The notes under the pieces were generated by a model. It was not told the DNA's origin. It saw only the letters and a program-made list of their open reading frames with translations, and made no database searches. DNA of 64,000 nucleotides from a virus (Duplodnaviria > Heunggongvirae > Uroviricota > Caudoviricetes): the IMG/VR virus record IMGVR_UViG_3300029641_000003, one strand, 5' to 3'. Position 1 is the first letter of the stretch. Each line of letters begins with the position of its first letter. Made by a program: the position numbers and the translations under genes. Below, in pieces: positions 15,931-43,682 of this stretch.

Positions 15931-15935
15931 TGAAA

Positions 15936-16930: not shown

Positions 16931-16965
16931 ATATTTTCAAGACCGTTTTTTATTCGATTTAGCAT

Positions 16966-17884: not shown

Positions 17885-18505
17885 ATGAAGGATGGTTTTG
17901 TGAAGTTAAGGGTTTTGGGAGCAGTGCTCGCGGTTATATTGGGGGGAGTTTCTCTTAATGCTGCCTATGCAGGCGCGTTACCTGCAAAGTATGAGGCTGG
18001 ACTGAAGGTATTGCGGAACTATAAAACCGATAGACCTGATGAATTTATAGACTTTTGCGAAAAAGAAAATATCACGCTGCAACCGGTTGAACCGGGGTTT
18101 ACAGGGAAGGGCGATTTCTGTTTGTTTGCGTATTCAGCAGACCGATTAGACAAGGCTATACGCAAGGCTGGCTATTCCACCAAAGACACTATGACAGCGT
18201 TAAGTAAAAGCTGGATGCAGTTTCAAGTTTATAGCCGGGAAGGTATGGGGGAGCTGTTGCAGCCGTTGTATGCTCTAGCATTGGTGCCGGAAGGTCAGCA
18301 GTTTCTGATCAAGAAAGGGTTCATGAGGGAGGAAGATGTAGCTGGTTTCGATGCCATCGTTGCCTATGAAAAACAACTCAAGGAACAGCGCAATAAAAAA
18401 CCATCTGCCTCATGCGTGCAAAGCAAAACAGCAGAATACAGCGCAGTGGCTGGGCCTTTAGCCCCACAAATGGCAGAGCAATGGTGTAAACAATACGGGC
18501 AATAA
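17885..18505 (+). CDS. secreted hypothetical protein
   Basis: Start taken at MKDGFVKLRVLGAVLAVILGGVSLNAAYA (signal peptide). Confidence 0.5.
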   Translation: MKDGFVKLRVLGAVLAVILGGVSLNAAYAGALPAKYEAGLKVLRNYKTDRPDEFIDFCEKENITLQPVEPGFTGKGDFCLFAYSADRLDKAIRKAGYSTKDTMTALSKSWMQFQVYSREGMGELLQPLYALALVPEGQQFLIKKGFMREEDVAGFDAIVAYEKQLKEQRNKKPSASCVQSKTAEYSAVAGPLAPQMAEQWCKQYGQ

Positions 18506-18525
18506 GTTACACAGCGGAGGCAGAA

Positions 18526-18918
18526 TTGAAAAGATTAGCTATTGCTTTATTGGCAGCTTTCCCTTTGATCGCTCACGCCGGGAATTTACAAGTGAAGTGC
18601 GGTAGGTTTGATATAAAAATCTATCCGAACGCCATATTTCTGAATGGGAATAAGGTCGATAACGCGCACCGGAAAACTGAATCTGACGTAATGAGCTATG
18701 TGTTCCAGGAGTATGCCGAGATGGGGGGAACTTACACGTTGTACTCGCTGGATGTTCCTTCTCGCGGTGATATGACGTTATCTCATCAATGGCAGAACGC
18801 CGATGGCGAAGCTCTGCGCGAGGTTAAAACAGAAAAATGTGGCACTTTCCATTCTTTTAAAGGGAAAGCGCCCAATGTTAAATCTACGCTTGAAAAACAG
18901 CGTGCTGGTGAGCTTTAA
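18526..18918 (+). CDS. secreted hypothetical protein
   Basis: MKRLAIALLAAFPLIAHA signal peptide; 130 aa. Confidence 0.5.
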   Translation: MKRLAIALLAAFPLIAHAGNLQVKCGRFDIKIYPNAIFLNGNKVDNAHRKTESDVMSYVFQEYAEMGGTYTLYSLDVPSRGDMTLSHQWQNADGEALREVKTEKCGTFHSFKGKAPNVKSTLEKQRAGEL

Positions 18919-19253
18919 GCCCCTTTAATCACGGAGATTTCGTTTCCCGCACGATAGCGGCGGGGAACGGAACTCTCCATCAGGTCACGAATTACTCCCG
19001 CTTCACGCAGTTTCTCTGTCTCCCAGTATCTGTTTGTCACCAGGTCAAGGCTGGCAATGACTTTATGCCGGTCATTCGGCATTGCTTCTTTTTCAGCCAT
19101 TATCATCAGTGAGAACTCTTCATCCAGTAGAATTTGATACCAGACTTTTGACAGTTCCAACTCTCTAATGAGGGTGAAGCGCCGCTCAATTGTGGCGGAA
19201 GAATAAGTGAAATCAATTTTTTTCGTGGCATACATTTTGCTGTGTCCGGTCAC
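18915..19253 (-). CDS. hypothetical protein (112 aa)
   Basis: ATG ORF convergent with secreted-protein genes. Confidence 0.4.
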   Translation of the reverse strand: MTGHSKMYATKKIDFTYSSATIERRFTLIRELELSKVWYQILLDEEFSLMIMAEKEAMPNDRHKVIASLDLVTNRYWETEKLREAGVIRDLMESSVPRRYRAGNEISVIKGA

Positions 19254-25684: not shown

Positions 25685-25894
25685 ATGGCTATTGCCGCAA
25701 GTTACACCATGCATCTCTATTGTGATTGCCTCCAGTGTACAGATGGCAAATATAAGTCGCCAGACTTCGGTGAGTATATCGGTACGTCATGGGCTGGCTG
25801 TGCAAAAGAGGCGCGCAAGGATGGCTGGCGAATAAGCAAAGACAAAACGCGTGCTTTTGCGCCCGGGCATAAAGTTTTGAGGATTAACAAATGA
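25685..25894 (+). CDS. small Cys-rich hypothetical protein
   Basis: 69 aa, CDCLQC...C motif, coupled to neighbours. Confidence 0.4.
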   Translation: MAIAASYTMHLYCDCLQCTDGKYKSPDFGEYIGTSWAGCAKEARKDGWRISKDKTRAFAPGHKVLRINK

Positions 25895-26856
25895 CCACTT
25901 TAACCGACAAAGAACTGATTAAAGAAATCAAAGAGCGCATAGGCAGTCTGGACGTGCGAGACAATATTGAGCGCCGTGCTTATGAAATTGCTCTGGCATC
26001 GCTGGAGGCAGAGCCTGTTCTGTATCAGTCCTGCACTCGCCCCACCTGGAATAGCGGTGTTCCGTGGACGGAATGGAAAGAACGAAGTCGTGAGTGCTAC
26101 GAAGACGATTTGCGCTTTACAGACACGCCTGACCATGCCGGTTGGATATACAAATGTCGAAAACTATATACCACTCCGCCAGCGCCGATAGCGTTAGAGG
26201 CCATTGAAAACGCAATTGAATACATCCGCAGTATCGCTTTTCACATCAATGAAGACGATTACCACGGCAAGCATATTGCGTATTTCATGCGACAAGCATT
26301 GGCCTGGCTGGAAGGGCATTCATGCAGCGACGACAGACTGGGTAAAGCCGAGAATCAAACAGTACACGGCAACCAGGCTGCCGAATCCAATCGCGGTAAT
26401 GAGTGGACCGGCAATCCTGATATTGATAACGCCATCATCATGCTCGATCGCATAGATACGCTGGAAAGTTGCGATGATGACCGTATTGAGGCGGTTAAGA
26501 CTGTTTTGCGTAGACTGGCAGGCAACTCTCCGGTAATTCCGGATGGTTTATCCACGGTATGCGCTGAGGCTTATCAGGTTGTAGGAGTTATGGCAGATGC
26601 GCTTGGTGTATTCGGTGATGCAGCAGTACAGAAAGTTCTGGATAACCTGTCACAGCAAAAACTTGTTCACAGAGATGTGCTGCCGTTCTCGCTTCCGGTA
26701 ACTCCGGATGGTTGGGTTATGGTTCCTAAACAGGTAACGCCGGAAATCAGCAACGCGATAAACGTTGTGGGTCAACGCTGTACATGCGGAAATTGCTCTC
26801 AGCGGTTGTGGGATTTATTACTCGACGCCACACAGCAAGGAGTTAACCGTGGCTAA
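25891..26856 (+). CDS. hypothetical protein (321 aa)
   Basis: Coupled ORF; shared N-terminal motif with 25171-25683. Confidence 0.45.
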   Translation: MTTLTDKELIKEIKERIGSLDVRDNIERRAYEIALASLEAEPVLYQSCTRPTWNSGVPWTEWKERSRECYEDDLRFTDTPDHAGWIYKCRKLYTTPPAPIALEAIENAIEYIRSIAFHINEDDYHGKHIAYFMRQALAWLEGHSCSDDRLGKAENQTVHGNQAAESNRGNEWTGNPDIDNAIIMLDRIDTLESCDDDRIEAVKTVLRRLAGNSPVIPDGLSTVCAEAYQVVGVMADALGVFGDAAVQKVLDNLSQQKLVHRDVLPFSLPVTPDGWVMVPKQVTPEISNAINVVGQRCTCGNCSQRLWDLLLDATQQGVNRG

Positions 26857-27032
26857 CCTGCAACTTATCCTCAAAGGTGAAAAGATTTGAGGATTCGCAT
26901 CATTAATAACACCGACAAACATCCGGATGATTATTTGGATTGCTCGTTAGCAGAGCGCGTGGAATTGATATAAGAGAATCTCCGCGCATCGGCAACACAC
27001 AGCTAAATATGTTCGCAATAAAGGGTAAATCA

Positions 27033-27434
27033 ATGGCTAAATTTCGGAGAACTATTATTTTTCTGGCAATGTTATCTGCCTGCCATTTATCACATGCATC
27101 GGTTATTGTTGCAACCGCCGCAACAACGGCAGCAATTAGCGCCTCAGCCGCAAGCGAGCAGGAGCAACGCACTGCAATCAATGCATCCGCAAATACTACC
27201 ACTGTAGCAGTCACGCAAGATAAGCCAAATATAGGCTTTGTTACTTGCGGAAAACGGTATGGAGAGACGGTCGGTTCTCTTGGTTGCGCAGTGTGGCATG
27301 ACGAACGAGCAGAAATTCCGTGGAAATCATGGCCTGGTTACATTCTTGGCGAAAAGATACCCACCAGCTATGAAGTAAATGCTATTTCGTTCGATCAATA
27401 TAACAGAGTCGCAACGGTCTACTTTTCTTATTAA
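27033..27434 (+). CDS. secreted hypothetical protein
   Basis: MAKFRRTIIFLAMLSACHLSHA signal peptide. Confidence 0.45.
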   Translation: MAKFRRTIIFLAMLSACHLSHASVIVATAATTAAISASAASEQEQRTAINASANTTTVAVTQDKPNIGFVTCGKRYGETVGSLGCAVWHDERAEIPWKSWPGYILGEKIPTSYEVNAISFDQYNRVATVYFSY

Positions 27435-27440
27435 CACGGA

Positions 27441-27740
27441 GTGATTATGTGGCGCGGTAATAATCATGGCAGAAGCCATATGATACTTACCGAATATAAG
27501 CTAGACCACAAAACCAATAAATCGCGCTCAGTATATTTGCTCCGGCACAATAGCCGCGTAAGGAATACCGTGCTGGAGCAAAATCTGACCGTTGAAATGG
27601 ATAATTTCGGGAATTTCAAGCCAACAATATCGCTTGATGATTTCCCTCGTGGTTTAAGCGAAAGAGAAGCAATGCTGAAGTTAGCAGAATGGCTACAAAG
27701 ATTGAGCATTGTTATTGAAGATAACTGGAGTCAACCATAA
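27441..27740 (+). CDS. hypothetical protein (99 aa)
   Basis: ATG ORF, stop overlaps next start (TAATG). Confidence 0.4.
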   Translation: MIMWRGNNHGRSHMILTEYKLDHKTNKSRSVYLLRHNSRVRNTVLEQNLTVEMDNFGNFKPTISLDDFPRGLSEREAMLKLAEWLQRLSIVIEDNWSQP

Positions 27741-27916
27741 TGAAAAACAGAAAGAAATTTTGGATTACTTTTTTGTTTGTATGCCTTTGCGGTTTATTTG
27801 TTTTATTAGCTGGTGGTGTTAAATGGGGTACGGTGGGGTGTGGTTTTTGGAGTGGGCTTACTCTTTTCGCAGCTTGGCTTATCGCCAACTTTGAGTCAGG
27901 CGGAGGGTATTGGTAA
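27740..27916 (+). CDS. small membrane protein (58 aa)
   Basis: MKNRKKFWITFLFVCLCGLFVLLAGG with two predicted transmembrane helices; below ORF-track cutoff. Confidence 0.3.
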   Translation: MKNRKKFWITFLFVCLCGLFVLLAGGVKWGTVGCGFWSGLTLFAAWLIANFESGGGYW

Positions 27917-27995
27917 GTGGTCTTATTCCCCACTTCATAACGGATATCACGCTCGTGATAACGGATATTCCAATTTTGATAACGGATAAGGCCAA

Positions 27996-28205
27996 ATGAA
28001 GCATTTTTTAAGGTTGGCATTTGTTCTGGCGCTATTTGCTCCTCAGGCTGCAATGGCTGGAGAACAGCAACATTGCACAAAAGAGAATGAACACCCTTTC
28101 ATCGTTATTCAATGTGATGACGGAACGGTGACAGTGGTTAATGTAAGAAATGACCGTGTAGCTGTATGCCGTAAAGGCGAACCATGCAAGGAAATAAAAC
28201 TATGA
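27996..28205 (+). CDS. small secreted Cys-containing protein
   Basis: MKHFLRLAFVLALFAPQAAMA signal peptide, four Cys in mature part. Confidence 0.45.
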   Translation: MKHFLRLAFVLALFAPQAAMAGEQQHCTKENEHPFIVIQCDDGTVTVVNVRNDRVAVCRKGEPCKEIKL

Positions 28206-28999
28206 CTAAAATCACTAAATTCCGCATATCAGAGATTATTGCACGCATCGAAATGTATGGACACGGCGCTGGATACACGGCAGATGAGGTATTGGAGCTT
28301 GCCCAAATAGCGTTAGCAACCTGCAAAGACGGTGAGAGTATAAAGCTGATTGACTTGTTGGTGCAGGAGCTGCCAAAGCGTGGAGGGTGGCCTGATGATA
28401 TGCTCGATTGTCGCATGGTTAGAGAGGACTGCTGTGAACCATCATATGGTTTCTTTGCTTTTGGCTCTGATCCAGCGAAAAGCCCGTGTGGGCGCAATTT
28501 TTGCCTTGAGGTCAGGCTTCCGATAAGTAACCTTTATCGCGAGGAATACACGGAAATAATTTCGCGCAAACAATACGAAGAGGCTCTTGAAGCATCCAAT
28601 AAGTTAAATTTTGAGCAATGGCTGGGGCAACAACACGAAAAAATCGACCTGGACTGCGGTTGTGTGTCTACTGAAACATTCATGCACTGGCTGCGGGTAG
28701 CCTATGAATCTGGCAACCGTCTGGATACTCATCCACAAGAGGTGCCGAAGCCAAGAGTAAGCACAACTCTGGAAAGGAGCTATCTTGAAACTGCATTAAA
28801 GATTAAGGCAGGCCATACGCTAGGCGTCATTGATGCCATGTTGGTTCATGAAATGGCGAAGGCTTTACTACCAGAAATTCCCGCGAATACGCCTACGCAA
28901 GTATTGGCGCTAATGAACAAACACAATCTGCCCAGGGAAGCATTCTGGTGCTTTGATCATGAACAGTGGAGATACTCATGCTATGAATGCCGGTATTAA
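28202..28999 (+). CDS. hypothetical protein
   Basis: Start MTKITKF overlaps previous stop (ATGA); last gene of the plus-strand accessory operon. Confidence 0.45.
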   Translation: MTKITKFRISEIIARIEMYGHGAGYTADEVLELAQIALATCKDGESIKLIDLLVQELPKRGGWPDDMLDCRMVREDCCEPSYGFFAFGSDPAKSPCGRNFCLEVRLPISNLYREEYTEIISRKQYEEALEASNKLNFEQWLGQQHEKIDLDCGCVSTETFMHWLRVAYESGNRLDTHPQEVPKPRVSTTLERSYLETALKIKAGHTLGVIDAMLVHEMAKALLPEIPANTPTQVLALMNKHNLPREAFWCFDHEQWRYSCYECRY

Positions 29000-29055
29000 T
29001 GATGACTGGTGATCTTGTAGTTCTGGCTACCCGCAGTACCCCTGGTTACTACAAA

Positions 29056-30848: not shown

Positions 30849-31228
30849 TGAGGCATATATCACCGGAAGAACTTATTGCGCTTCATGATGCGAATATAAA
30901 CCGCTACGGCGGCCTGCCGGGAATGTCTGATCCGGGCAGGGCAGAGGCCATTATCGGGAGAGTCCAGGCCAGAGTTGTGTACGAAGAGATCACCGACCTT
31001 TTCGAAGTCTCCGCCACCTACCTGGTGGCAACGGCGAGAGGGCATATATTCAATGATGCCAATAAGCGTACCGCGCTAAACAGTGCGCTGCTATTTCTAC
31101 GCCGTAACGGTATACAGGTATATGATTCTCCCGTGCTGGTGGAACTTGCGGTGGGGGCTGCAACTGGTGAAATCCCCGTATCTTCAGTAGCGGAAAAACT
31201 ACGTGAACTATATGGTTCCAATATTTGA
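30848..31228 (+). CDS. doc: Doc toxin (Fic-fold kinase)
   Basis: 126 aa, start overlaps phd stop; [19 protein letters not shown]ic-like motif. Confidence 0.9.
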
Positions 31229-31257
31229 AAAGAAGCCCGCTCAACCAGGCGGGCTTC
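31227..31257. terminator. hairpin terminator between convergent doc and terminase-paralog operon
   Basis: GAAGCCCGC-TCAACCAG-GCGGGCTTC, A-run on plus side gives U-run for minus-strand transcripts. Confidence 0.45.
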
Positions 31258-31263
31258 CTACTA

Positions 31264-32370
31264 TCACTCAATGATTTTTTCTGCTGTCAGCCAGCTAATT
31301 TCTTGCCTGTCTTTCGGCGGTTTTAGCATGTGGGCGTATTCAGCGACATTCTCCCACGGAATTGTTTTTGCCCACTCAACGATAGCATTGTGATCTGCAG
31401 TGAAGAGTGGAATGGTGTGCGATTTCAACCACTCTAATGTTGTAACGCCATGTTTTTTGGCGTGGTGCTGTGCATGATGCCGGGCTATCACTAGTAATGG
31501 CATTGTCCATTCACTACCATCATGCATCGTAAAGCGCATTGTTTTCGGCATATCTGATTCAAGAACAGCCTCCCGAATACCCGGGAACTCACCAAGAACC
31601 ATGCGACGGTAATCATCGCCGCTTTTACCACCATACATTTCTGCGATCCCATCAAGATAATCTTGAGTAAGCAGAGGTGATTCTTCTGCGTTCAGCTTGA
31701 TGGCAGTATAAATACCACATGGATTTTCTTCAGTTTTTGCACGACCATGATGGGAATCGTAAAAGTGTCCATGTTCCTCCTCTGGAGGAGCAGACGTCAA
31801 AAGTATACGTGAGTCGCCACTAACTAAAGATGCTCTTAACATCCCGAATAGCCGATAGCTTACCAGAGCCGCGTCCATAACAATGATCAAAAGATGTTCA
31901 GCATAATATCCGGCTACATCTTCCTCATAATTTAGGCGATATGGTTTAATTTCGCAGCCCCAAGATTTTTGGTAACGATGATTGAGGCCATTTTGGTCGA
32001 TTTGAAAATACTCTCCCAGTAATGGCGCTTTTGTATTAGCTTTCTCCCAATACATATTCATGAGTGAGAGAGTTACCATTCCATTACGCTCAAAGTCTGG
32101 AGCGACCATGACCGTTTTAGACTCAGGCATCAGGATCGTATAAAGGATACAAATGATAGCCATAGCAGACTTATGCCCTATCCCAGTCGGTGTGGTAACG
32201 CTGACTGCTGAACCTTTTTGTTGAATCGCCTCAACAATTAATTTTTGCTGGTGGGTTAACTTAACCCCCATCAACTCTTCTGCTGCTAATGCCCAGTCAT
32301 GGCTATATTTGCTTACCAGCTCTCTCCACTCTGGTAATTCGGTGATGTTTTTAGGCGTCAGCATCAGCAT
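31264..32370 (-). CDS. terminase large-subunit ATPase-domain paralog lacking nuclease domain
   Basis: Aligns by eye with N-terminal half of PacB (37719-39227): SVTTPTGIGHKS vs TVTSGHGTGKSS, LLTSAPPEEEHGHFYDSHHGRAKTEENP vs [27 protein letters not shown]; only 368 aa. Confidence 0.5.
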   Translation of the reverse strand: MLMLTPKNITELPEWRELVSKYSHDWALAAEELMGVKLTHQQKLIVEAIQQKGSAVSVTTPTGIGHKSAMAIICILYTILMPESKTVMVAPDFERNGMVTLSLMNMYWEKANTKAPLLGEYFQIDQNGLNHRYQKSWGCEIKPYRLNYEEDVAGYYAEHLLIIVMDAALVSYRLFGMLRASLVSGDSRILLTSAPPEEEHGHFYDSHHGRAKTEENPCGIYTAIKLNAEESPLLTQDYLDGIAEMYGGKSGDDYRRMVLGEFPGIREAVLESDMPKTMRFTMHDGSEWTMPLLVIARHHAQHHAKKHGVTTLEWLKSHTIPLFTADHNAIVEWAKTIPWENVAEYAHMLKPPKDRQEISWLTAEKIIE

Positions 32371-33157
32371 CCTCCGCTACCTCTGCTTCCACATCTGCCG
32401 CGACTTCATCGGACTGTTCTTCTTTGGCCTGTTCTGCAATCGCCGCACGGCATTTCGCCCTGGCTGTAGCGATAGCCTCAACTTTCACGTCATTAGGAAT
32501 ACTTGAGGTGACATACATATCCAGTTCTTCAGCACGGAATACTGTTTTGCCCAGGAATTCATCAAGCATCCAGGTTAAGGAAAAGTCGCAGGAAATCAGG
32601 TCTACTTCGCCTTCCGCGCCGTTTGGGAAATGGATAAATATCTGTTTGCCCAGGCCAAGCACGCGACAAGCAGCCATCATTACTGCAAGTTCCAGGTCTT
32701 TGTTTTCACCTGCTACTGGTTGATCCACACCAGTAATAGTGCCGTTCAAATGGATATTATATGGCTGATATTTAGAGATACGTTCTACACGCCATGTGCC
32801 GGTTAAGGTTCCCTGGCGGAAGATTATTGGCGTGACCGAAAGCGACAGCTCTCGAATGAGTTGTTGCGCTATGGCTGGGTCATACAGCGGATCTAACGCG
32901 ATGCATCCATAAGACTGCGCCAGTTCAAACAATTCTTCCTGTGTGCACTGAATGCCTCTTGCCGTAATAAAACGTCTGACTCCCGTTTTCCCATCACGCC
33001 AGATAGCAATGCCATTCTCACTATCTAACTCTTCGTCTAAGCCCAGGTATGTAAGGATGGTTCGCTCAATGGTGGCAAAGGGCAGGGACATATCATCGTT
33101 TACATCCACCAGCAGGCCATTACGCAGGCGATATTGAATGTTTTTGGTATTTTCCAC
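32351..33157 (-). CDS. hypothetical protein with acidic C-terminal tail
   Basis: 268 aa; overlaps next gene by 20 nt. Confidence 0.4.
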   Translation of the reverse strand: MENTKNIQYRLRNGLLVDVNDDMSLPFATIERTILTYLGLDEELDSENGIAIWRDGKTGVRRFITARGIQCTQEELFELAQSYGCIALDPLYDPAIAQQLIRELSLSVTPIIFRQGTLTGTWRVERISKYQPYNIHLNGTITGVDQPVAGENKDLELAVMMAACRVLGLGKQIFIHFPNGAEGEVDLISCDFSLTWMLDEFLGKTVFRAEELDMYVTSSIPNDVKVEAIATARAKCRAAIAEQAKEEQSDEVAADVEAEVAEDADADA

Positions 33158-33163
33158 GTTAAA

Positions 33164-33826
33164 TCACTCCACAACAAACCAGTCACAGGCCAGCAGGTCG
33201 CCAACTGAAGGCACCCACGGAACAACTACACCTTGTGCATTTTTTAAGGCGAAATAAGCACCATACGGAACGAGGTCGCCGGGGAAATATCCCTTAATGG
33301 CTTCCATTCGTGCCGGGTACTGTCCTTCAGGAACCAGCCAGCAGAATTGGTTTTCGCCGTTCCACCCACGTCGGGCAACTTTCTTGCCATCCTTCAGCCA
33401 CATCAGCGCGTCAGAAAAGTCGGCTGCTTCAAGGTCGATTTCTTCTTGTAGAGTAACGATACCGCCAGCAGAAATAGTTACGTCCCTGGCTGTAATGAAT
33501 GTCACCCCATTGTGACCTTCAATGCTGAGCGATACCCCATTTTCGGAGGCGTCGTTAACCCGGCTATAGCATTTTTCAAATGCTTTCTCTGGCACATAGA
33601 CCAGATAGCCATTTTCAGCAGTGACGAGATATCCTCCTATTTGCGGTCGGAATTTTTCCAAGAACACACCATCAACACGAAGCGTCATTCCTTTTGGCTC
33701 AACGACTTCGATACTGCCAAAAATGGGCGCATAAGCTTCGCCGACAATAACAATATCTTTGATTTTCGATGCCCGAATGATGCTGTGGCATTTGTATTTG
33801 GGGAACACCTGAAAAGTGCTGACCAT
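33164..33826 (-). CDS. two-domain protein with C-terminal DUF2829 (Tad2-like) domain
   Basis: C-terminal ALMWLKDGKKVARRGWNGENQF...VPWVPSVGDLLACDWFVV fits DUF2829 signature as recalled; N-terminal 130 aa unassigned. Confidence 0.5.
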   Translation of the reverse strand: MVSTFQVFPKYKCHSIIRASKIKDIVIVGEAYAPIFGSIEVVEPKGMTLRVDGVFLEKFRPQIGGYLVTAENGYLVYVPEKAFEKCYSRVNDASENGVSLSIEGHNGVTFITARDVTISAGGIVTLQEEIDLEAADFSDALMWLKDGKKVARRGWNGENQFCWLVPEGQYPARMEAIKGYFPGDLVPYGAYFALKNAQGVVVPWVPSVGDLLACDWFVVE

Positions 33827-33840: not shown

Positions 33841-34335
33841 TTAAAACTTTGCGTACTGAAGCGGTGTACGCTTGATTTCAACGCGGCCTTCCGATGTGCT
33901 ACCAAAGCCACCAGCACCTCGCTCTGTTTCATCGAGTTCATCAACTTCTACCAGCGATACCGGTTCAACACGCTCAAAAATGCCTTGCATGACCGCCATT
34001 CCTGGCTTAAGGCAAACGCCTTCACCACCGGGATCTGTAATCAGTTTTGCCATGATTTCACCGCGATAATCGGAGTCGATAATTCCTACGCAGTTAGCCA
34101 GGCGCGTATGCTTTTTGCAGCCCAATCCGGAACGAGGATAAAGTTTCAGACACCAGCCAGGAGGGATCGCCATAGCGAGGCCGGTATGCACCCACCAGCT
34201 TGAGGAAATAGCGCCGTTGCTATCGATACCCGGCGTTATTTCAACAGCAACAAAATCCATCGCCGCCGATCCGGCGGTGGCGTAAACGGGGAGTTTTGCC
34301 GCCGGATGAAGGCGTTTCACTTTCACGTTAATCAT
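33841..34335 (-). CDS. dut: dUTPase
   Basis: AGSAAMDF, PRSGLG, GIIDSDYRGEI, GGFGSTS motifs of trimeric dUTPase. Confidence 0.85.
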   Translation of the reverse strand: MINVKVKRLHPAAKLPVYATAGSAAMDFVAVEITPGIDSNGAISSSWWVHTGLAMAIPPGWCLKLYPRSGLGCKKHTRLANCVGIIDSDYRGEIMAKLITDPGGEGVCLKPGMAVMQGIFERVEPVSLVEVDELDETERGAGGFGSTSEGRVEIKRTPLQYAKF

Positions 34336-34820
34336 TGCTTTTTAGCTCTCCGGGTAAATGTATAAATCCGGCGTTTGATATGCGGAGCGGTCGGAACGGA
34401 GACGCAGGTATTCTCGATAACACCTTGTTCCTCCAGCGATCGCACAGCACGCAAGAACTGTGATGCATCACCACCGCCAGACAGCCAGAATTTGCGGGCA
34501 TAGACGCTGCCATTACGGATAATTTCTGCGATCACCCGCGCTTGCGTCTGGCTTTCTCGATAGCCAAAGAGTTCTCTTGCCTCTCCTTGTGGGATAGCCA
34601 ACTGATAGCCTTTCCCGCTACGGTGACGAACAAAACCGTGAGCAATGAGGTTCTTCAGCTCATTTCTGGTGCGGATACACCCGTACTCAGGGAACTGTAT
34701 GTTGATATCACCAGGCTTATGCCATTCATCAGGACTATCAGCCAGGAGGGACAGAAGTTTCCCTGACAGCTCAGGATTAGTGGTTGGATAACAGTTCAGG
34801 GATGGGTAGTAAGTTTTCAT
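34332..34820 (-). CDS. hypothetical protein (162 aa)
   Basis: Coupled ORF in operon downstream of cre. Confidence 0.4.
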   Translation of the reverse strand: MKTYYPSLNCYPTTNPELSGKLLSLLADSPDEWHKPGDINIQFPEYGCIRTRNELKNLIAHGFVRHRSGKGYQLAIPQGEARELFGYRESQTQARVIAEIIRNGSVYARKFWLSGGGDASQFLRAVRSLEEQGVIENTCVSVPTAPHIKRRIYTFTRRAKKQ

Positions 34821-35161
34821 TTGCGCCCCCTTGCCGGATAGCGCCCGGCATTCGCATCAGGGGCAATGAAGCCGCTGGTGGGGCGAGTGAAAACATGGTT
34901 AATTTTCTCGGTCATAGCGCGATAATTTTCCTGATAGTGGGCCAGGAGTTTTTCAGCAGCAATGACGGTTACTTTCCGGACGTAGCGTTCAGCTTCCTCC
35001 AGATTTCGCCAGTTTTTTTCGAGGGTAAATACGGGAACGGCATCAAGTCCGGTCATAACACCGAACACCACGACCGCCTGGTCGCGCTTAACGCCCGCAG
35101 TGAAGGTTATGGTGTAACCGTCAACAGTGAAGCGTTTTGATTCCGTAATACGATTGTGCAA
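34817..35161 (-). CDS. hypothetical protein (114 aa)
   Basis: First gene of operon, behind operator half-site at 35219. Confidence 0.4.
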   Translation of the reverse strand: MHNRITESKRFTVDGYTITFTAGVKRDQAVVVFGVMTGLDAVPVFTLEKNWRNLEEAERYVRKVTVIAAEKLLAHYQENYRAMTEKINHVFTRPTSGFIAPDANAGRYPARGRK

Positions 35162-35218
35162 AGTACCCTCCGCAATAGGCGAGGGTACTTTACATTAAAA
35201 TGCACTGTCTAAAAAGAT

Positions 35219-35229
35219 TGTTAGAAAAT
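35219..35229. promoter_or_regulatory. operator half-site TGTTAGAAAAT
   Basis: Exact core motif between cre stop and start of downstream operon. Confidence 0.4.
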
Positions 35230-35233
35230 TAAT

Positions 35234-36262
35234 TTATGAATCCATCAGGCGACTATTTGCACCAACGGATGCCCCGCTACGGCGCAAATATCGCATAAGT
35301 GTTTCGGGCTTTTTCCATGTGCCTTCCTGCATGATCTCGACCATTGACACCTGTTTCTCAGCCATATCAATTGCCGCACCAACACGCGCACTATGGCCTG
35401 TCCACGTCCGGTATCTTCCTTTGTTCGGCGTGGCATCTCGTTTGTTCAGCAACCCCCAGGCATCGCTGAATATTTTCTCCATTGCAGGTGCAGTAAGGGG
35501 CGTTGTCGTGATTCTGGCCTTATTACTGCGGTGTATTGGCGGGAATAGCACCGCGTCCGGATGTTCTCGAAGTCCGGACACCTCCAGCCAGTCGTTCAGT
35601 ACGGCGGTAGTGTAACGAGAAAGCACCTTATCAAGTCCGGCGGCGGTCGTGATGGTCTTCGTGTGTGAAATATGCAGCGTTACAGTGTCACCTGTTTGGT
35701 CCAGATCTCCGACGCGGATGCGCGAGATTTCTGACATACGCATCAGGGTATTGTATGCCACGAAGAGAAACGCCCGATTGCGCAGGTCCACCAGCCGCTC
35801 GGAACGGGACAGCAACACGTCGAGCAATTTCAGATCATCCCACCGCAACGGTATAGCCTGGCCTGTTCGCTCGCCTTTTTCCGTTGCCGCTTCGCGCCGG
35901 ATGCGCCGCATGGCCAGAGACACACTTTTATCGTCCGACAGCGGCGGGAGGCCACATTGCGAAAGCAGCATGTTAAGCATGGCATAGTGCTTATCAATGG
36001 TGGTCGAAGCCAGATCGGCCTCATGCAACTGGAGAAGATACTCGCGGGCCATTTCCGGCGTAATCGGGAACCAGGGGCGCTGGCGCGAGTTACACCACCG
36101 CGCCCAGGAATGAAACACCAGACGGAGATCACGAAGTGTATTTGGGGCATAAGCTCCCTGGTCGTTCATGAACTGCATAAAGTTTTTTGCAGCTTCCTGG
36201 TATTCGGTGCCAATATCGCGCAGAAAACCACCAGAACCGCCGGAGATAACTAGTTCACCCAT
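35234..36262 (-). CDS. cre: Cre-like tyrosine site-specific recombinase
   Basis: 342 aa; aligns by eye with recalled P1 Cre along the length (WFPITPE, NTLMRMSEISRIRVGDL, HSARVGAAIDMA, MQEGTWKKPETLMRYLR) at roughly 40 percent identity. Confidence 0.85.
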   Translation of the reverse strand: MGELVISGGSGGFLRDIGTEYQEAAKNFMQFMNDQGAYAPNTLRDLRLVFHSWARWCNSRQRPWFPITPEMAREYLLQLHEADLASTTIDKHYAMLNMLLSQCGLPPLSDDKSVSLAMRRIRREAATEKGERTGQAIPLRWDDLKLLDVLLSRSERLVDLRNRAFLFVAYNTLMRMSEISRIRVGDLDQTGDTVTLHISHTKTITTAAGLDKVLSRYTTAVLNDWLEVSGLREHPDAVLFPPIHRSNKARITTTPLTAPAMEKIFSDAWGLLNKRDATPNKGRYRTWTGHSARVGAAIDMAEKQVSMVEIMQEGTWKKPETLMRYLRRSGASVGANSRLMDS

Positions 36263-36413
36263 GAAACTATTAAACCTCTATATACAGATAACGCTACGTG
36301 AAAAATAGAAAACTGACAGGGTAGTTATAAGTTAATTTTCAAAATTCAAGCCTTTGATTCGAGGCATGATTTTTCATCCTTGTCAATACTGCCTGTTTAC
36401 TGGTGATTATAGC

Positions 36414-36447
36414 CTAACTTTAAATAATGCCAATTATTTAAAGTTAG
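36414..36447. other. lox-like recombination site (34 bp)
   Basis: CTAACTTTAAATA-ATGCCAAT-TATTTAAAGTTAG: perfect 13-bp inverted arms, 8-bp asymmetric spacer, 150 bp upstream of cre; 9 of 13 arm positions equal to loxP. Confidence 0.65.
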
Positions 36448-36530
36448 AAATCGGGGCTTTTTTCCCAAAAAAAACACCGACCAGATCACTTCGCAAATCC
36501 GTCAGCCATGCGGTAGCCGCTCCTGGTTAC

Positions 36531-36626
36531 ATTTTCTAATAGGAACAATCAAAAAAAAGCGGTTTTATCCTTTACTCACCTTGTTATTCAGCATAAATTT
36601 GTCACAGGACTTTTATGTTAGAAAAC
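36531..36626. promoter_or_regulatory. operator pair flanking promoter of the c1-position gene
   Basis: ATTTTCTAATA (36531-36541) and TGTTAGAAAAC (36616-36626) in inverted orientation. Confidence 0.45.
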
Positions 36627-36643: not shown

Positions 36644-37681
36644 ATGAGTAAGAAGTCGATCGAGAATGAGTACAAACGGTTCCTGCAAACCGCTGAACGG
36701 TGGAAAGAGCTGGTGGTCGCAAACTCTGTTTTCCATGATACCAGTTATGTTGGCGAGGAATTTCGCCATGTTGCATTAACACATGATCCGGCTGTATTAG
36801 AAGAAGCTGAAAAATGCATAGCCGAATGGAAAGCCTTTGTTGATCTGTGTCGCAAGGATGATGACAAAGCCTCAAACATTGTTGAGTCGGTTTATTTACC
36901 GATCCCATTCATTGTTGAGGATACTAATCAGAGTACGCATATCGTTATGCAAAGCGCAACCACAACGAGAACATTTACGCGCGAAGACCTGTTGAAAAAA
37001 TACGATAAAACTATAAAGAAAAGCATGAAAAACAGGATATTTTCACAGGTTGTCGGTGCGCTTGAAGAAGAACGCAGATTCTTCGCCGCTGAACGTGAGG
37101 GCGAGGTATACCGCGCAAGAAAAGAAGGTTATACCGATGTGGTGATTACCACCAATATCGAGGGCAACAATGGACTTTCACGCTTCAGAGTGGGTACGCA
37201 CGGTGCGCTGATCTTTGCCAGAAAAGCAAACACAGAGATTCCCGTTGTTAACAACGTTGGTGAGCGCCGCACCCTTACCATTTACACTGGCATTAAACCG
37301 CTTCCGTGCGGACTTCTCGGCGAATTTGACCTTTATCGGGTTCGTGATCTGGAAAAGCAGCAGCCAAGCTATGTCGTGAAGTCATATATCCTGAGAAACA
37401 TTGATATCCGCAATCAGAGTTTAAAAAACAAATCAGATAAAATGCTGGCCGAAGCCGATCCAGCCATACACCAGATCGTTAGCCGGAAAATTCAAGAGGC
37501 TAAAGATGCAATGGCAAGGCTGGATAAAATGGACCTGGAACTACTGGAAGTTATGATTGCCTCCGGCGATGACCTGACAGGCATCCGCCTTACTGAAGCC
37601 AGGAAAAAATACGGTAAAAGCGTTGAAGAACGCTATGGGTACACATTCACACAAACGATGTACGCGGCAAAACTCTGGTAA
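36644..37681 (+). CDS. candidate primary repressor (occupies the c1 position between lox and pacB)
   Basis: 345 aa, AGGA RBS; convergent with pacB and divergent from cre as c1 is in P1; homology to C1 not verified. Confidence 0.35.
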   Translation: MSKKSIENEYKRFLQTAERWKELVVANSVFHDTSYVGEEFRHVALTHDPAVLEEAEKCIAEWKAFVDLCRKDDDKASNIVESVYLPIPFIVEDTNQSTHIVMQSATTTRTFTREDLLKKYDKTIKKSMKNRIFSQVVGALEEERRFFAAEREGEVYRARKEGYTDVVITTNIEGNNGLSRFRVGTHGALIFARKANTEIPVVNNVGERRTLTIYTGIKPLPCGLLGEFDLYRVRDLEKQQPSYVVKSYILRNIDIRNQSLKNKSDKMLAEADPAIHQIVSRKIQEAKDAMARLDKMDLELLEVMIASGDDLTGIRLTEARKKYGKSVEERYGYTFTQTMYAAKLW

Positions 37682-37697: not shown

Positions 37698-37721
37698 AGC
37701 CCCGAATCGCCGGGGCTTTTA
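37698..37721 (+). terminator. intrinsic terminator after c1-position gene
   Basis: AGCCCCG-AATCGC-CGGGGCT followed by TTTT. Confidence 0.55.
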
Positions 37722-39227
37722 AATGTCAATATCAGGAATATCCACTTCTGCCAACACCTGATCGCGGAATGTTGCGAGTTCTGCGCCAATGTCTTCATTA
37801 GCAGGCACGTAATCCACCAGCATAGTGAAGCAGTAGGTATCCCATCTGTCCGGCGACTTGATGTTTAACTTCTGCCGCATGTGCTCCTTGCGCATCATCG
37901 CTACCTTCCCTTCTTCGTTAAGCATATACGGGATTTTTGATGCCTGATCTGCGGTTTTGGGGTCACTATCGATACGCATACGCCCGGATTTAATGGCATC
38001 CCCTGCCATAATATTGGCGTAAGCACGCTGATTGACAAAGCGTTCTCTGTCTCTTAGCGCAAACATAGGCTTACCCCAACGGATGCGAACGGGATTAGCA
38101 CCACGGCGGACAAGCTGCGCACACGTATCTGAACCAAAGCCATCAGCATCCACAGCAATGGTGATGTTCGGGTATTTATCAGGAGTGCATTCGTTATAGA
38201 TAAAGTCGGCAAAAGCCAACGGGTCCATAGTGCCTGGCATCTCCAGTATCTTAAAGTTCACAACGCGTCGTTTCTCACGATAACCGGATACTTTGCATAT
38301 ATTGAGCACCGATTTGTCGCGACCATTACCGACGTCAGCGGTCGCTACCCAGCCCCAATCTTTCTCCAGCAACACTTTACGCCGTGCGGCGCGGTCGCAC
38401 TCATCACGACCAAGCAAATACCCGTTAATTGCACGCGGGAACTGGCCCAGCACCTTAACCATGTACTCCAGCGAATCCCTGCCGCCGTACTCAAGCAATT
38501 TCTCACGAATAAAGCTCGGTTCAACGAATGGTGATTCTTCAGAGTTAAGGACTATTGCCGTCCAGACACCTTCCGGATTGCCTTCTGCCTTTGCCCTTGA
38601 ATGGTGAGATTCATAAAAGTAACCGCTTGGACGCGTAGGCTGGGAAAGCATGAGCATACGGTTATCTTTCTGCGTTAACGCCCCCGTCATGACGTTAATC
38701 GCCTTATCGGATATGCCCGATGCTTCATCAAGGATTAGCAGTAAATGCTCCGCGTGCTCCCCCGCCAGTGCCTCTTCGTTACCGAGTCGATAACCTTTAC
38801 AGAGCACTTCCCATATCCCTTTACGGGAACGCTCATAAAACATGGTGTCAGACAGGACAAAATAGGTCTGTAACCAGCCGTGGCGCTTAACAGCATTCGC
38901 CCAAAACTGTTTCACGTATTTGAATACGCCTGTTTTTACCTGGCCTATTTTGTTCGCAACAATAATGACGCGGGCGTCGGGGAACAGGATCATAAAAATT
39001 AGTAGCAACATCGCGGTAAGGGACGACTTACCCGTTCCGTGTCCGGACGTAACGGTCGTCCTGCTCCCCGTCTCCTGCACTGACTGAATGATCTGCTGCT
39101 GCTGGTGGGAGGGGAACATCCCAAAAATATCGACAACCGCCTGGGTAAAGTTGTATCGATACCTGATAACCATATCGCGCCAACGTGGATCACTGGTGAC
39201 GCACTTAATCTTACGACCACCAGCCAT
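37719..39227 (-). CDS. pacB: PacB terminase large subunit
   Basis: 502 aa; Walker A GHGTGKSS, LLLILDEASGI Walker B, C-terminal nuclease-like region with acidic residues. Confidence 0.85.
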   Translation of the reverse strand: MAGGRKIKCVTSDPRWRDMVIRYRYNFTQAVVDIFGMFPSHQQQQIIQSVQETGSRTTVTSGHGTGKSSLTAMLLLIFMILFPDARVIIVANKIGQVKTGVFKYVKQFWANAVKRHGWLQTYFVLSDTMFYERSRKGIWEVLCKGYRLGNEEALAGEHAEHLLLILDEASGISDKAINVMTGALTQKDNRMLMLSQPTRPSGYFYESHHSRAKAEGNPEGVWTAIVLNSEESPFVEPSFIREKLLEYGGRDSLEYMVKVLGQFPRAINGYLLGRDECDRAARRKVLLEKDWGWVATADVGNGRDKSVLNICKVSGYREKRRVVNFKILEMPGTMDPLAFADFIYNECTPDKYPNITIAVDADGFGSDTCAQLVRRGANPVRIRWGKPMFALRDRERFVNQRAYANIMAGDAIKSGRMRIDSDPKTADQASKIPYMLNEEGKVAMMRKEHMRQKLNIKSPDRWDTYCFTMLVDYVPANEDIGAELATFRDQVLAEVDIPDIDI

Positions 39228-40591
39228 TAGTCATCCTCCGGCTGGTCTATCGCAATCTCGTCATCTACAGCATCAAAACCGGTATCCCCCGCGTCATAAT
39301 CACCGTAGATATCAGCCGTGGCGGAAGGGTCTATATTCAGGTCTTCATCATTGGCCTCAAATTCACCGGCTTTACGTTCTCCGTTCCGGTCGTAATCCCC
39401 CATCCCAAGCCTATCAACGATTTTCGCTACTTCAGCCCGGCGTTGTGCAAGCCATTGTGGGAGTCCAGCTTGTTGCTCGGCAAACTGCTTCGCCTCTTTA
39501 TCCAGTTGCTCATCATCAACATCGTTAACGTCAGAAACCGGAGGCTCCAGAAGTGAGATCGCTTTTGCCGCTCGTGCCGCCAGGATAGCCGGGACACTGA
39601 CGCCCTGCCGCTCGATATATTCAGCAACACCTATATCATCCAGCTCCTCGCGCTCACGCATACGTATAGCGGCGGCGATAACTCTGGCGGCGCGTGCGTC
39701 AGCGCCAATGCGATACTCAATCTCCTTGCCACGCTGCTCGGCTTGTAGGCGGGCAATCGCCAGTTTTTCTCTGGCCTCAGCCTCCCTGAATGCCTGCTGA
39801 CGCGCGCCCTGCGCAAGTTTTTCATCCCCCTGGCGTAGCTTCTGCTCGTTCTGATAGATGGCTGCCAGCCTGGTGATAAAGTCATTCATGTAGTAGGCAG
39901 CATCGCTGATCAGTCCGAGAAGACGTTGCCCTGGATGCATCCCCTCTGGCTGTGTATCACCGAGGGCATCAATCTCTTCCTGTAGTCGCTCCGCTTCCTG
40001 GTCAACGATAGCCTGATACTGAATTGCTCGTTCCTGCGCCATCTGTATCGCAAGTCGTAAATGTTCAGTCGCGCCGTTCTTCATCATCTCGCGGGCGACG
40101 TTGGTGGCAGGCAAAGTGGCGCTTTGAGCTGATGAATCAGGGATCATTTGCAATGATCCCTTGTTTCGTTGGGCTTTTTCGCTGCTTTTAGGGATCATTT
40201 CTCCCATTTCATCACAAAATGATCCCTTTACATCCTTGTGTATCTTGTTGTTATTATTTGGCTTTTCTTTGTGATCCGCATTTTGTTTTTGCGGCATGGC
40301 GCGGAACCGTCCACCAGCTAACGGTTTGTCAGTTTTTGTAAATTCTGTGCTTTTATCAGCCTTTTTTTGCTCTTTTTTTGAGCCGGTGGCGCTGCTTTTT
40401 GCGCGCTGTTTTGTACTTTTCCCGGCAGCCTTAGCTTTCGCCTTAACCTCATTTTTTTTCATATTGAGATGCTTTCTGGCGGTGTTAAAGCTGAGGTCAT
40501 GCTGCTCGCAATATTCTTTTATGGTGATCCCGGTTTCTTCTCTTAACTCCAGGAACTTAGCTCGATGCGCTTCCCAGTTAATTAACGTCAT
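39227..40591 (-). CDS. pacA: PacA terminase small subunit
   Basis: N-terminal HTH (ITIKEYCEQHDLSFNTARKHL), start overlaps lpa-like stop, stop overlaps pacB start; pac-like GATC cluster inside 5' third. Confidence 0.7.
   Translation of the reverse strand: MTLINWEAHRAKFLELREETGITIKEYCEQHDLSFNTARKHLNMKKNEVKAKAKAAGKSTKQRAKSSATGSKKEQKKADKSTEFTKTDKPLAGGRFRAMPQKQNADHKEKPNNNNKIHKDVKGSFCDEMGEMIPKSSEKAQRNKGSLQMIPDSSAQSATLPATNVAREMMKNGATEHLRLAIQMAQERAIQYQAIVDQEAERLQEEIDALGDTQPEGMHPGQRLLGLISDAAYYMNDFITRLAAIYQNEQKLRQGDEKLAQGARQQAFREAEAREKLAIARLQAEQRGKEIEYRIGADARAARVIAAAIRMREREELDDIGVAEYIERQGVSVPAILAARAAKAISLLEPPVSDVNDVDDEQLDKEAKQFAEQQAGLPQWLAQRRAEVAKIVDRLGMGDYDRNGERKAGEFEANDEDLNIDPSATADIYGDYDAGDTGFDAVDDEIAIDQPEDD
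40139..40226. other. candidate pac packaging site with four GATC heptamers
   Basis: GGGATCATT-TGC-AATGATCCC palindrome (40140-40160) and GGGATCATTT...AAATGATCCC (40190-40227), two pairs flanking a 30-bp core inside pacA. Confidence 0.5.
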
Positions 40592-42497: not shown

Positions 42498-42573
42498 TGG
42501 TGGCCCCTACCGGACTTGAACCGGTGACCGTGCGATTATGAGTCGCCCGCTCTAACCACTGAGCTAAAGGGCC
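42498..42573 (-). tRNA. tRNA-Ile (anticodon CAU, ileX-like)
   Basis: 76 nt GGCCCTTTAGCTCAGTGGTTAGAGCGGGCGACTCATAATCGC...GGTTCAAGTCCGGTAGGGGCCACCA; cloverleaf with CAU anticodon and encoded CCA; near-identical to E. coli ileX as recalled. Confidence 0.8.
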
Positions 42574-42710
42574 AGATTACTGTTAATTACGCTTACGCTT
42601 TTTGCCAGAACCGCGTAAGGCTTTTGCCGCTTGCTCTACCCCGTATGCAACCACCAGCAGAAACAATAATGTCCACTCCGGGTTTTTATCGGCAAACGCC
42701 CAAAAATTCA

Positions 42711-42944
42711 TCACTTACAGCCACCTTGCATTTCCTCGGATAATTCATTGACTTTAGTGCTCAATAAGTAATCAAAGTAAAGATAAAACACAAAAGTAAC
42801 GATAGTGCTTAAAGTGTCTGAAATTGCGTATTTCAGCTCAGGAAGCATGACAAAGCAGACAAATAGCGGAAGAAATAACTGCACTATGCACAGACTCTCC
42901 TTCCACAACCATCTATATCTGAAGTCTGACAACAAAAACTCCAT
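42711..42944 (-). CDS. small membrane protein (77 aa)
   Basis: Hydrophobic segments; stop overlaps start (TGATG) of a further 41-aa hydrophobic ORF at 42583-42711. Confidence 0.35.
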   Translation of the reverse strand: MEFLLSDFRYRWLWKESLCIVQLFLPLFVCFVMLPELKYAISDTLSTIVTFVFYLYFDYLLSTKVNELSEEMQGGCK

Positions 42945-43194
42945 TGCTTGAAACTTTATTAGATTGCGGTGCCTGGTGCCTCCAGGTGACGTTAACCAGT
43001 TAACAATTAACGCCGGGATGTTTGACTTAACTATTAAGGAAAATTGTTTTAACTGTTCCGCGTGCGCTTAGCCGCATTCACCGCAATGGTAAGAGCATTT
43101 GGCTGGCTGGGCGGCGATGACGCCTGTACGCATTTGGTGATCCGGTTCTGCTTCCGGCATTCGCTTAATTAGCCAAATACTCTTAACGTTGCGC

Positions 43195-43281
43195 TGGCGG
43201 AGAGTAATGGAATCGAACCATCATCGCTTGCGCAATGGGACGGTTTTCAAGACCGCTTGAGCACCATGCTCCCTACTCTCC
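43195..43281 (-). tRNA. tRNA-like gene, type II (long variable arm), possible tRNA-Ser(UGA)
   Basis: GGAGAGT/ACTCTCC 7-bp acceptor stem, discriminator G plus CCA, T-arm GATGG-TTCGATT-CCATT, anticodon loop CTTGAAA; D-arm atypical. Confidence 0.4.
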
Positions 43282-43529
43282 AGTGATTGTGGTGGTCGGT
43301 ACTGATCTCCGACTGCGCCTCTTTTTTTCATAGCCCATAAGGCCGGTCAGTGCGCTTGATGACTGAGGCATCGATATTTACTACGCCGCCTCGTTGCCAT
43401 AGGGCGGACTTGCGCGCCAGCAACGCGCATTCACCACAACGGAAAGAGCATTTATGGCTCGCATCGCGGGAAGCGGGAAAAAACCCACGGTAGAGAGTCG
43501 AACTCTACAAATGCTCTTACCTGTTGTGT

Positions 43530-43605
43530 TGGTGCCGGTTAACGGACTCGAACCGCTGACATCCTGCTTACAAGGCAGGCGCTCTACCAACTGAGCTAAA
43601 CCGGC
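43530..43605 (-). tRNA. tRNA-Thr (anticodon UGU)
   Basis: GCCGGTTTAGCTCAGTTGGTAGAGC...CTTGTAA...GGTTCGAGTCCGTTAACCGGCACCA canonical cloverleaf. Confidence 0.85.
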
Positions 43606-43607
43606 AT

Positions 43608-43682
43608 TGGCGATGGTGGATGGATTCGAACCACCGACCAGTTGGTTAACAGCCAACTGCTCTACCACTGAGCTACACCATC
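43608..43682 (-). tRNA. tRNA-Asn (anticodon GUU)
   Basis: GATGGTGTAGCTCAGTGGTAGAGC...CTGTTAA...GGTTCGAATCCATCCACCATCGCCA; 2 nt from tRNA-Thr. Confidence 0.85.

What the first reader, a model, noticed from the sequence alone, without database searches (positions are those of the whole stretch)
35234..36447. Cre-like recombinase with a divergent lox site
The 342-aa tyrosine recombinase aligns with P1 Cre along its whole length at only about 40 percent identity by eye. 150 bp upstream lies a 34-bp site with loxP architecture but different sequence: arms CTAACTTTAAATA / TATTTAAAGTTAG (9 of 13 positions equal to loxP arms) and spacer ATGCCAAT (loxP ATGTATGC). The asymmetric GCCA core gives the site directionality. 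This looks like a natural orthologous Cre/lox pair, possibly orthogonal to Cre/loxP.
Basis: partly seen in the sequence, partly recalled or inferred. Interest (0 to 1): 0.75.

Follow-up and report, generated by a model that had tools for sequence, protein, structure and literature searches.

The report
Known Dre recombinase and rox site
This is the already well-characterised Dre/rox recombination system of phage D6 (a Cre/loxP relative widely used in mouse genetics), here as a 94%-identical natural allele with the exact published rox site on a D6-like phage-plasmid of E. coli, so it is real but not new.

Summary
A 342-aa tyrosine recombinase gene lies at 35234..36262 on the minus strand. It aligns with P1 Cre over residues 22-341 at about 43% identity. 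A unique perfect palindromic site lies at 36414..36447, 151-152 bp upstream.

The pair is not a new Cre/lox orthologue. The protein is 322/342 (94%) identical to Dre of phage D6. Window 36415..36446 is base-for-base the published wild-type rox site, TAACTTTAAATAATGCCAATTATTTAAAGTTA.

The gene order dut-orf3-orf2-dre-rox-c1-pacB-pacA matches the D6 immC region. The window is collinear with the D6 genome across the rox junction. All catalytic residues and the positions known to separate rox from loxP recognition are the same as in Dre. The exact protein already sits in RefSeq (WP_021551777.1) on ~90-kb E. coli plasmids.

The functional reading is right: a Cre-like pair, heterospecific to Cre/loxP. 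The implied novelty is not.

Side observations:
- Relatives carry natural rox core variants (ACTA, CCCC, GCTA) on conserved arms.
- Homology between relatives breaks at the c1-side edge of rox.
- A conserved promoter-like element overlaps the rox core.

The parts
35234..36262 (-). dre allele: 342-aa Cre-type tyrosine recombinase, 94% identical to phage D6 Dre and identical to RefSeq WP_021551777.1
   Evidence: ORF. Cre structures at E 4e-72. 322/342 identical to AAV84949 Dre. 100% tblastn match to the NZ_CP085065 CDS. Pfam Phage_integrase plus Phage_int_SAM_1. Catalytic R175, K202, H290, R293, W316 and Y325 present.
36415..36446 (+). rox site: 32 bp, left arm 36415..36428, asymmetric core GCCA 36429..36432, right arm 36433..36446. 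Flanking C36414 and G36447 extend the palindrome to 15-4-15 in this allele.
   Evidence: Identical to the D6 misc_recomb 'rox' feature and to the published wild-type roxP oligo in PMC4777119. Unique in the window. 15-nt arms 100% complementary.
36406..36433 (-). Sigma-70-like promoter pointing into dre: -35 TTGGCA (36433..36428, overlapping the rox core), 16-nt spacer, -10 TATAAT (36411..36406). Putative only.
   Evidence: 11/12 consensus match, but the number of sites in the region is not above shuffles. The -10 TATAAT or TATGAT is kept at the same spacing in 31 of 32 related sequences counting the window, including the 70%-identity lineage; the one exception (L028) comes from the script's one-orientation match, and by my own unscripted reading it also keeps TATAAT there.
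36644..37681 (+). c1-type prophage repressor gene, 345 aa, reading away from rox
   Evidence: 81% identical to D6 C1 AAV84948. PHROG 1678 at E 4e-159. Weak NCBIfam phage_rep_C1 match.
37719..39227 (-). pacB terminase large subunit (context)
   Evidence: 92% identical to D6 PacB.
39230..40591 (-). pacA terminase small subunit (context)
   Evidence: tblastn of D6 PacA gives 74% identity over 454 aa.
33841..35161 (-). orf2 (34817..35161), orf3 (34332..34820) and dut (33841..34335) downstream of dre, in the same order as in the D6 immC region
   Evidence: ORFs. D6 annotation lists dut, orf3, orf2, dre, rox, c1, pacB, pacA. Pfam dUTPase.

Best explanation
The locus is the Dre/rox site-specific recombination module of a D6-like phage-plasmid, the D6 counterpart of P1 Cre/loxP.

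Inferred mechanism, from Cre/loxP structures and Dre/rox experiments in the literature:
- Two Dre monomers bind the two inverted arms of each rox site.
- Two rox sites synapse in a tetramer.
- Tyr325, with Arg175, Lys202, His290, Arg293 and Trp316, cleaves and exchanges strands through a Holliday junction within the central region.
- The asymmetric GCCA core fixes the orientation of the site.

Inferred role in the element's life cycle, by analogy with P1: one rox per genome lets Dre circularise terminally redundant infecting DNA and resolve plasmid-prophage dimers, so the low-copy plasmid segregates stably.

Shown here: the identity of the site, the near-identity of the enzyme, the conserved catalytic and specificity residues, and the synteny. 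Not shown here: activity of this particular allele.
For: - Protein is 94% identical to Dre over all 342 residues, with no gaps.
- The 32-bp site is identical to the annotated D6 rox and to the published wild-type roxP sequence (PMC4777119).
- The site lies 152 bp upstream of the start codon in the window and in all 21 related loci where this was measured, spanning three Dre alleles at 100%, about 94% and 88.6% identity.
- Catalytic residues and the Cre K43/R259/G263 equivalents (R44/P259/K263), which PMC4957104 identifies as rox-versus-loxP discriminators, are the same as in Dre.
- None of the 20 substitutions falls on those positions.
- Gene order matches the D6 immC region.
- The window is collinear with D6 from 53031 through 91159/1 to 28136, with 51.2 of 64 kb alignable.
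- Dre/rox recombination and its heterospecificity to Cre/loxP are experimentally established (PMC4777119, PMC4957104, PMC3553980, PMC8050033).
- A D6-like plasmid prophage study assigns multimer resolution to this recombinase and site (PMC6799933).
Against: - No experiment on this exact allele was found. It carries 20 substitutions relative to laboratory Dre, 15 of them in the first 102 residues.
- The cyclisation and dimer-resolution roles are extrapolated from P1.
- I did not locate a pac site, and the P1-type TGATCA/G hexamer cluster is absent.
- The original Sauer & McDermott 2004 paper and the D6 genome paper were not in the held library, so they are cited only through papers that cite them.
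Confidence: 0.95

Rival explanations
1. The window enzyme is a functionally diverged Dre relative whose 20 substitutions change target specificity or cross-reactivity, making it a new orthogonal pair.
For: There are 20 substitutions against Dre, clustered in the N-terminal domain. Related Cre-type enzymes with similar sites can have different cross-recombination profiles (PMC10250229).
Against: The cognate site next to the gene is identical to rox. The known specificity positions are unchanged. Alleles at 88-100% identity all sit beside the same arms. Even Panto, at 52% identity, recombines rox (PMC4957104).
Confidence: 0.04
2. The palindrome is only a transcription terminator or repressor operator that happens to sit beside a recombinase gene, not a recombination site.
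For: It is a perfect 15-bp inverted repeat in an intergenic region, and a promoter-like -35 overlaps it.
Against: It is AT-rich with no T-tract terminator signature, and the terminator scan did not call it. The identical 32 bp is the experimentally used Dre substrate. Arms are conserved while the 4-bp core varies among relatives, which is the pattern expected of a tyrosine-recombinase crossover site.
Confidence: 0.01
3. The recombinase acts mainly as an integrase that inserts the element into the host chromosome.
For: 5 of 158 matching places in complete E. coli genomes lie on chromosomes rather than plasmids (not followed up).
Against: 153 of 158 places are on plasmids of about 90 kb. The element carries plasmid replication, partition and addiction genes in D6. 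There is one symmetrical lox-type site rather than an attP with arm-type sites.
Confidence: 0.02

Closest known systems
Dre recombinase / rox site of Escherichia (Salmonella) phage D6 (GenBank AY753669, MF356679; Sauer & McDermott 2004)
   Same: The 32-bp site is identical. The protein has the same length, is 94% identical, and aligns without gaps. The spacing (152 bp) and orientation relative to the gene are the same. The flanking genes are the same (orf2, orf3, dut on one side; c1, pacB, pacA on the other). Catalytic and specificity residues are the same.
   Different: There are 20 amino-acid substitutions, 15 of them in residues 2-102. The flanking base pair makes the palindrome 15-4-15 instead of 14-4-14. 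About 100 bp on the c1 side of rox is unrelated to D6, and C1 is only 81% identical. Overall DNA identity of the locus to D6 is about 86%.
Cre / loxP of phage P1
   Same: Same fold family and full-length alignment (E 4e-72). Same catalytic residues. A 34-bp-class inverted-repeat site with an asymmetric centre. Same position between the recombinase gene and c1 in a plasmid prophage.
   Different: About 43% protein identity. The site shares 21/34 positions. Specificity residues K43/R259/G263 are R/P/K here. The asymmetric core is 4 bp, against 8 bp in loxP. In the P1-type plasmid, two small ORFs lie between the c1 side and cre, whereas here rox is 152 bp from the ATG.
Panto / pox (Pantoea sp. 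aB)
   Same: A Cre-type pair whose arms differ from rox by one nucleotide. Panto and Dre cross-recombine each other's sites (PMC4957104).
   Different: Panto is reported as 52% identical to Dre and has a different spacer. The window protein is a Dre allele, not a Panto relative. A 44-45% tblastn hit to Pantoea and Rahnella plasmids marks that more distant group.

Membership tests
Dre/rox system of phage D6 | Recombinase is near-identical to Dre (AAV84949) over its full length | tested here: met
   322/342 identical, 331/342 positives, 0 gaps.
Dre/rox system of phage D6 | Target site is the 32-bp rox sequence TAACTTTAAATAATGCCAATTATTTAAAGTTA | tested here: met
   Window 36415..36446 is identical to the D6 rox feature and to the published wild-type roxP (PMC4777119). 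Exact-match position confirmed.
Dre/rox system of phage D6 | Site lies between dre and c1 in a D6-type phage-plasmid backbone | tested here: met
   Gene order matches the D6 immC region. 152-bp spacing in every related locus measured. The window is collinear with the D6 genome.
Dre/rox system of phage D6 | Enzyme recombines rox and does not recombine loxP | not testable with these tools
   Established for Dre in the literature. Inferred here from the identical site and unchanged specificity residues.
Cre-type tyrosine site-specific recombinases | Catalytic Arg-Lys-His-Arg-Trp/His plus Tyr nucleophile | tested here: met
   R175, K202, H290, R293, W316 and Y325 align with Cre R173, K201, H289, R292, W315 and Y324. 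The Dre numbering agrees with PMC4777119.
Cre-type tyrosine site-specific recombinases | Two-domain architecture: SAM-like N-terminal domain plus Phage_integrase catalytic domain | tested here: met
   PF02899 at E 1.3e-5 (residues 26-97) and PF00589 at E 2.6e-17 (residues 157-328), both above gathering cut-offs. Alignment to Cre crystal-structure sequences covers 22-341.
Cre-type tyrosine site-specific recombinases | Simple 32-34 bp site with two inverted arms around an asymmetric centre and no accessory arm sites | tested here: met
   15-4-15 perfect palindrome. No second copy or half-site-rich region in the window at up to 3 mismatches.
P1 Cre/loxP itself | Site is loxP (ATAACTTCGTATA ATGTATGC TATACGAAGTTAT), with Cre-level protein identity | tested here: not met
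   21/34 site positions and about 43% protein identity.

The most novel reading that the evidence does not exclude
The rox site may double as a regulatory element. The -35 hexamer of a dre-directed promoter is built from the rox core (TTGGCA at 36433..36428), with a -10 TATAAT fixed 16 nt away and conserved across all lineages. Dre occupancy of rox would then autoregulate dre. The natural core variants seen in relatives (GCCA, ACTA, CCCC, GCTA) would then change two things at once: which phage-plasmids can recombine with each other, and how strongly dre is expressed.
Probability: 0.15. Interest if true: 0.3.

Novelty: already known. Interest (0 to 1): 0.1.

Why it matters
It matters little as a discovery. 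Dre/rox has been characterised since 2004 and is a standard partner to Cre/loxP in dual-recombinase genetics; one review counts over 70 Dre mouse lines (PMC8050033).

The residual value is practical:
- The window gives a natural 94% allele of a widely used tool enzyme.
- Its relatives show which positions of Dre and which rox core sequences nature tolerates. That could inform the engineering of heterotypic rox sites, which have so far been found by library screening (PMC4777119).
- It also shows that a sequence-only reader can correctly recognise a lox-type pair but cannot tell that it is already known.

Tried and rejected
- I looked for the primary papers (Sauer & McDermott 2004; Lobocka 2004 on the P1 genome; Gilcrease & Casjens 2018 on the D6 genome). 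None is in the held library, so I relied on papers that quote the rox sequence and Dre properties.
- I looked for a P1-type pac site (a cluster of TGATCA/G hexamers) near pacA to support the cyclisation argument. No 200-bp window has 5 or more hexamers, so I make no claim about pac location.
- The whole-window inverted-repeat scan did not list the rox palindrome, although the local scan did. I treat this as a tool-listing limit, not as evidence against the site.
- NCBIfam has no Cre- or Dre-specific model. Only sub-threshold XerC/XerD hits appeared.
- I considered whether the 88.6% allele class pairs with a different site. The sampled L023 has exact rox, while other members of that class (L028-L031) carry core variants. 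One identical protein (WP_039002937.1) is found with both ACTA and GCCA cores, so the core does not co-vary with the enzyme.
- The promoter scan count in the region is not above shuffles, so the promoter is reported only as a lead.

Full report
**Observation.** The window has a 342-aa ORF at 35234..36262 on the minus strand. At 36414..36447, 151 bp upstream of its ATG, lies the string CTAACTTTAAATAATGCCAATTATTTAAAGTTAG. The string occurs once in the window even at up to 3 mismatches, and none of 100 dinucleotide-preserving shuffles gave a match. A local repeat scan shows two 15-nt arms, 100% complementary, separated by 4 nt. The numerical comparisons with loxP are correct: 9/13 per arm, 3/8 in the spacer and 21/34 overall. 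The protein matches Cre crystal-structure sequences at E 4e-72 over residues 22-341, at 43% identity (136/317).

**Identification.** Megablast of 35100..36600 against phage records hits only phage D6, at about 86% DNA identity. The features under the match are 'dre: tyrosine recombinase' and 'region of crossover (rox) site for Dre recombinase'. The window protein is 322/342 (94%) identical to Dre (AAV84949) without gaps. The D6 rox feature reads TAACTTTAAATAATGCCAATTATTTAAAGTTA. The same 32-mer is given as the wild-type roxP site in PMC4777119, and it is identical to window 36415..36446. Only the flanking base differs: G in the window and T in D6. That difference makes the palindrome one base pair longer here.

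The literature describes rox as 14-bp inverted repeats around a 4-bp asymmetric spacer (PMC4777119). [quoted passage not shown] PMC4957104 also reports Dre/rox in two E. coli genomes.

**Enzyme details.** The catalytic residues align as follows:

| Window protein | Cre |
|---|---|
| R175 | R173 |
| K202 | K201 |
| H290 | H289 |
| R293 | R292 |
| W316 | W315 |
| Y325 | Y324 |

This agrees with the Dre numbering in PMC4777119. PMC4957104 identifies Cre K43, R259 and G263 as discriminating loxP from rox. The equivalent positions are R44, P259 and K263 in both Dre and the window protein.

The 20 substitutions against Dre are at positions 2, 5, 9, 16, 19, 26, 30, 58, 59, 62, 63, 68, 76, 81, 102, 217, 227, 270, 329 and 331. 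Fifteen lie in the first 102 residues, and none falls on the residues above. Pfam finds Phage_int_SAM_1 and Phage_integrase above their cut-offs. NCBIfam has no specific model for the protein.

**Context.** The gene order is a DUF2829/Tad2-like gene, dut, orf3, orf2, dre, rox, c1, pacB, pacA. This matches the D6 immC region. PacB is 92%, PacA 74% and C1 81% identical to the D6 proteins. Local blastn shows the window collinear with the D6 genome from coordinate 53031 through the rox-centred origin to 28136. In all, 51.2 of 64 kb aligns at 73-98% identity, interrupted by a dozen non-D6 segments. The same locus at 97% identity or more is on seven PLSDB plasmids of 90-94 kb and in 17 records from complete E. 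coli genomes. One of them, NZ_CP085065, encodes the identical protein WP_021551777.1, annotated only as 'tyrosine-type recombinase/integrase'. The window is thus a D6-like phage-plasmid, a group already described (PMC6799933).

**Mechanism.** By homology with Cre/loxP, and from published Dre/rox experiments, I infer the following. Dre dimers bind the two arms of each rox site. Two sites synapse. Tyr325 carries out sequential strand exchanges in the central region, and the GCCA core gives polarity. With one site per genome, the natural roles are most likely those known for P1 Cre, from my own knowledge of Sternberg's and Austin's work: circularisation of terminally redundant infecting DNA, and resolution of plasmid dimers. 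PMC6799933 assigns multimer resolution to this module in a D6-like prophage. These roles are inferred rather than shown here. I could not find a P1-type pac hexamer cluster.

**Relatives.** In PLSDB, tblastn finds three Dre allele classes:

| Identity to the window protein | Records |
|---|---|
| 99% or more | 7 |
| 90-95% | 100 |
| 80-90% | 85 |

P1 Cre appears at about 42% identity. In 21 related loci covering all three classes, exact rox lies 152 bp from the start codon. A less biased 44-bp blastn probe shows variation. Sampling the variant hits shows conserved arms with different 4-bp cores:
- ACTA in L029 and L030.
- CCCC in L028 and L033.
- GCTA in L032 and L034, where the recombinase is only about 70% identical.

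The identical protein WP_039002937.1 is paired with ACTA in one plasmid and with GCCA in another. In IMG/VR, 21 of 23 sites have GCCA. Invariant arms with a variable core is the pattern expected for a tyrosine-recombinase crossover site. It also shows that the window carries the canonical laboratory rox.

An alignment of 19 distinct sequences, the window included, shows that homology between lineages breaks at the c1-side edge of rox. There are at least three unrelated ~100-bp variants on that side. One locus (L016) combines a D6-type dre-side flank with a third-type c1-side flank. This is consistent with rox-mediated exchange between co-resident relatives, or with a hypervariable immunity region.

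**Verdict.** It is the known Dre/rox system, with an identical site and a 94% allele already in public databases. Novelty is 'already known', and interest is low. The only open questions are small ones: whether this allele behaves exactly like laboratory Dre, whether the natural core variants form recombination-incompatibility groups, and whether the promoter-like element overlapping rox is functional.

Noticed in passing
Loci L028-L034 (relatives); window 36429..36432 for comparison: Relatives carry natural rox core variants on conserved 14-bp arms: GCCA (canonical, as in the window), ACTA, CCCC and GCTA. The identical recombinase WP_039002937.1 is paired with ACTA in NZ_CP072804 and with GCCA in NZ_CP054995. 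L028 also has one arm mismatch (ATTATCTAAAGTTA)..
   Followed up: partly
window 36447..36550, compared with L001-L024: Homology between D6-like elements breaks at the c1-side edge of rox. The dre side aligns in all loci. The c1 side has at least three unrelated ~100-bp variants, and L016 joins a D6-type dre-side flank to a third-type c1-side flank. This suggests mosaic joints made at rox, or a hypervariable immunity region.
   Followed up: partly
window 36406..36433 (-): A sigma-70-like promoter points into dre. Its -35 TTGGCA is formed by the rox core, the spacer is 16 nt, and the -10 is TATAAT (11/12 match). The -10 (TATAAT or TATGAT) keeps its position in 31 of 32 sequences checked, including the 70%-identity lineage, while the -35 changes with the core variant. 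The scan count is not above shuffles.
   Followed up: partly
window 1179, 10220, 21251, 21883/21898, 35220, 36617, 41059/41074, 45012, 46257, 52808, 57212, 58416: The 13-bp motif GTTAGAAAAYTAA occurs 14 times at up to 1 mismatch, against 0.17 expected. Two pairs are arranged as palindromes. One copy lies 2 bp below the dre stop codon, and one lies 15 bp before the c1 ATG and is invariant in relatives. It looks like a set of scattered asymmetric repressor operators, like the C1 operators of P1.
   Followed up: no
window 33164..33826 (-): A 220-aa protein three genes downstream of dre has a Pfam Tad2-like (Thoeris anti-defence 2-like, DUF2829) domain at residues 136-219, E 1.6e-22. It is a possible anti-defence gene on the phage-plasmid.
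   Followed up: no
window 42498..43682 (-): There are four tRNA genes (Met-CAT, Ser-TGA, Thr-TGT, Asn-GTT). The D6 annotation lists three (Ser, Thr, Asn), so the tRNA-Met appears to be extra in this element.
   Followed up: no
window 26549..29055, 1664..3022, 15904..16967, 17937..19000, 31219..32393, 61196..62162: These segments have no blastn match to D6. ORFs at 25891..26856 and 28184..28999 have no Pfam hit. They are accessory cargo of this D6-like lineage with unknown function.
   Followed up: no
E. coli complete genomes: 5 of 158 places matching the dre-rox locus lie on chromosomes rather than plasmids. These could be integrated or mis-assembled D6-like elements.
   Followed up: no
window 36644..37681 (+): The C1 repressor is only 81% identical to D6 C1, while the neighbouring Dre (94%) and PacB (92%) are closer. 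This may mean a different immunity specificity from D6.
   Followed up: no
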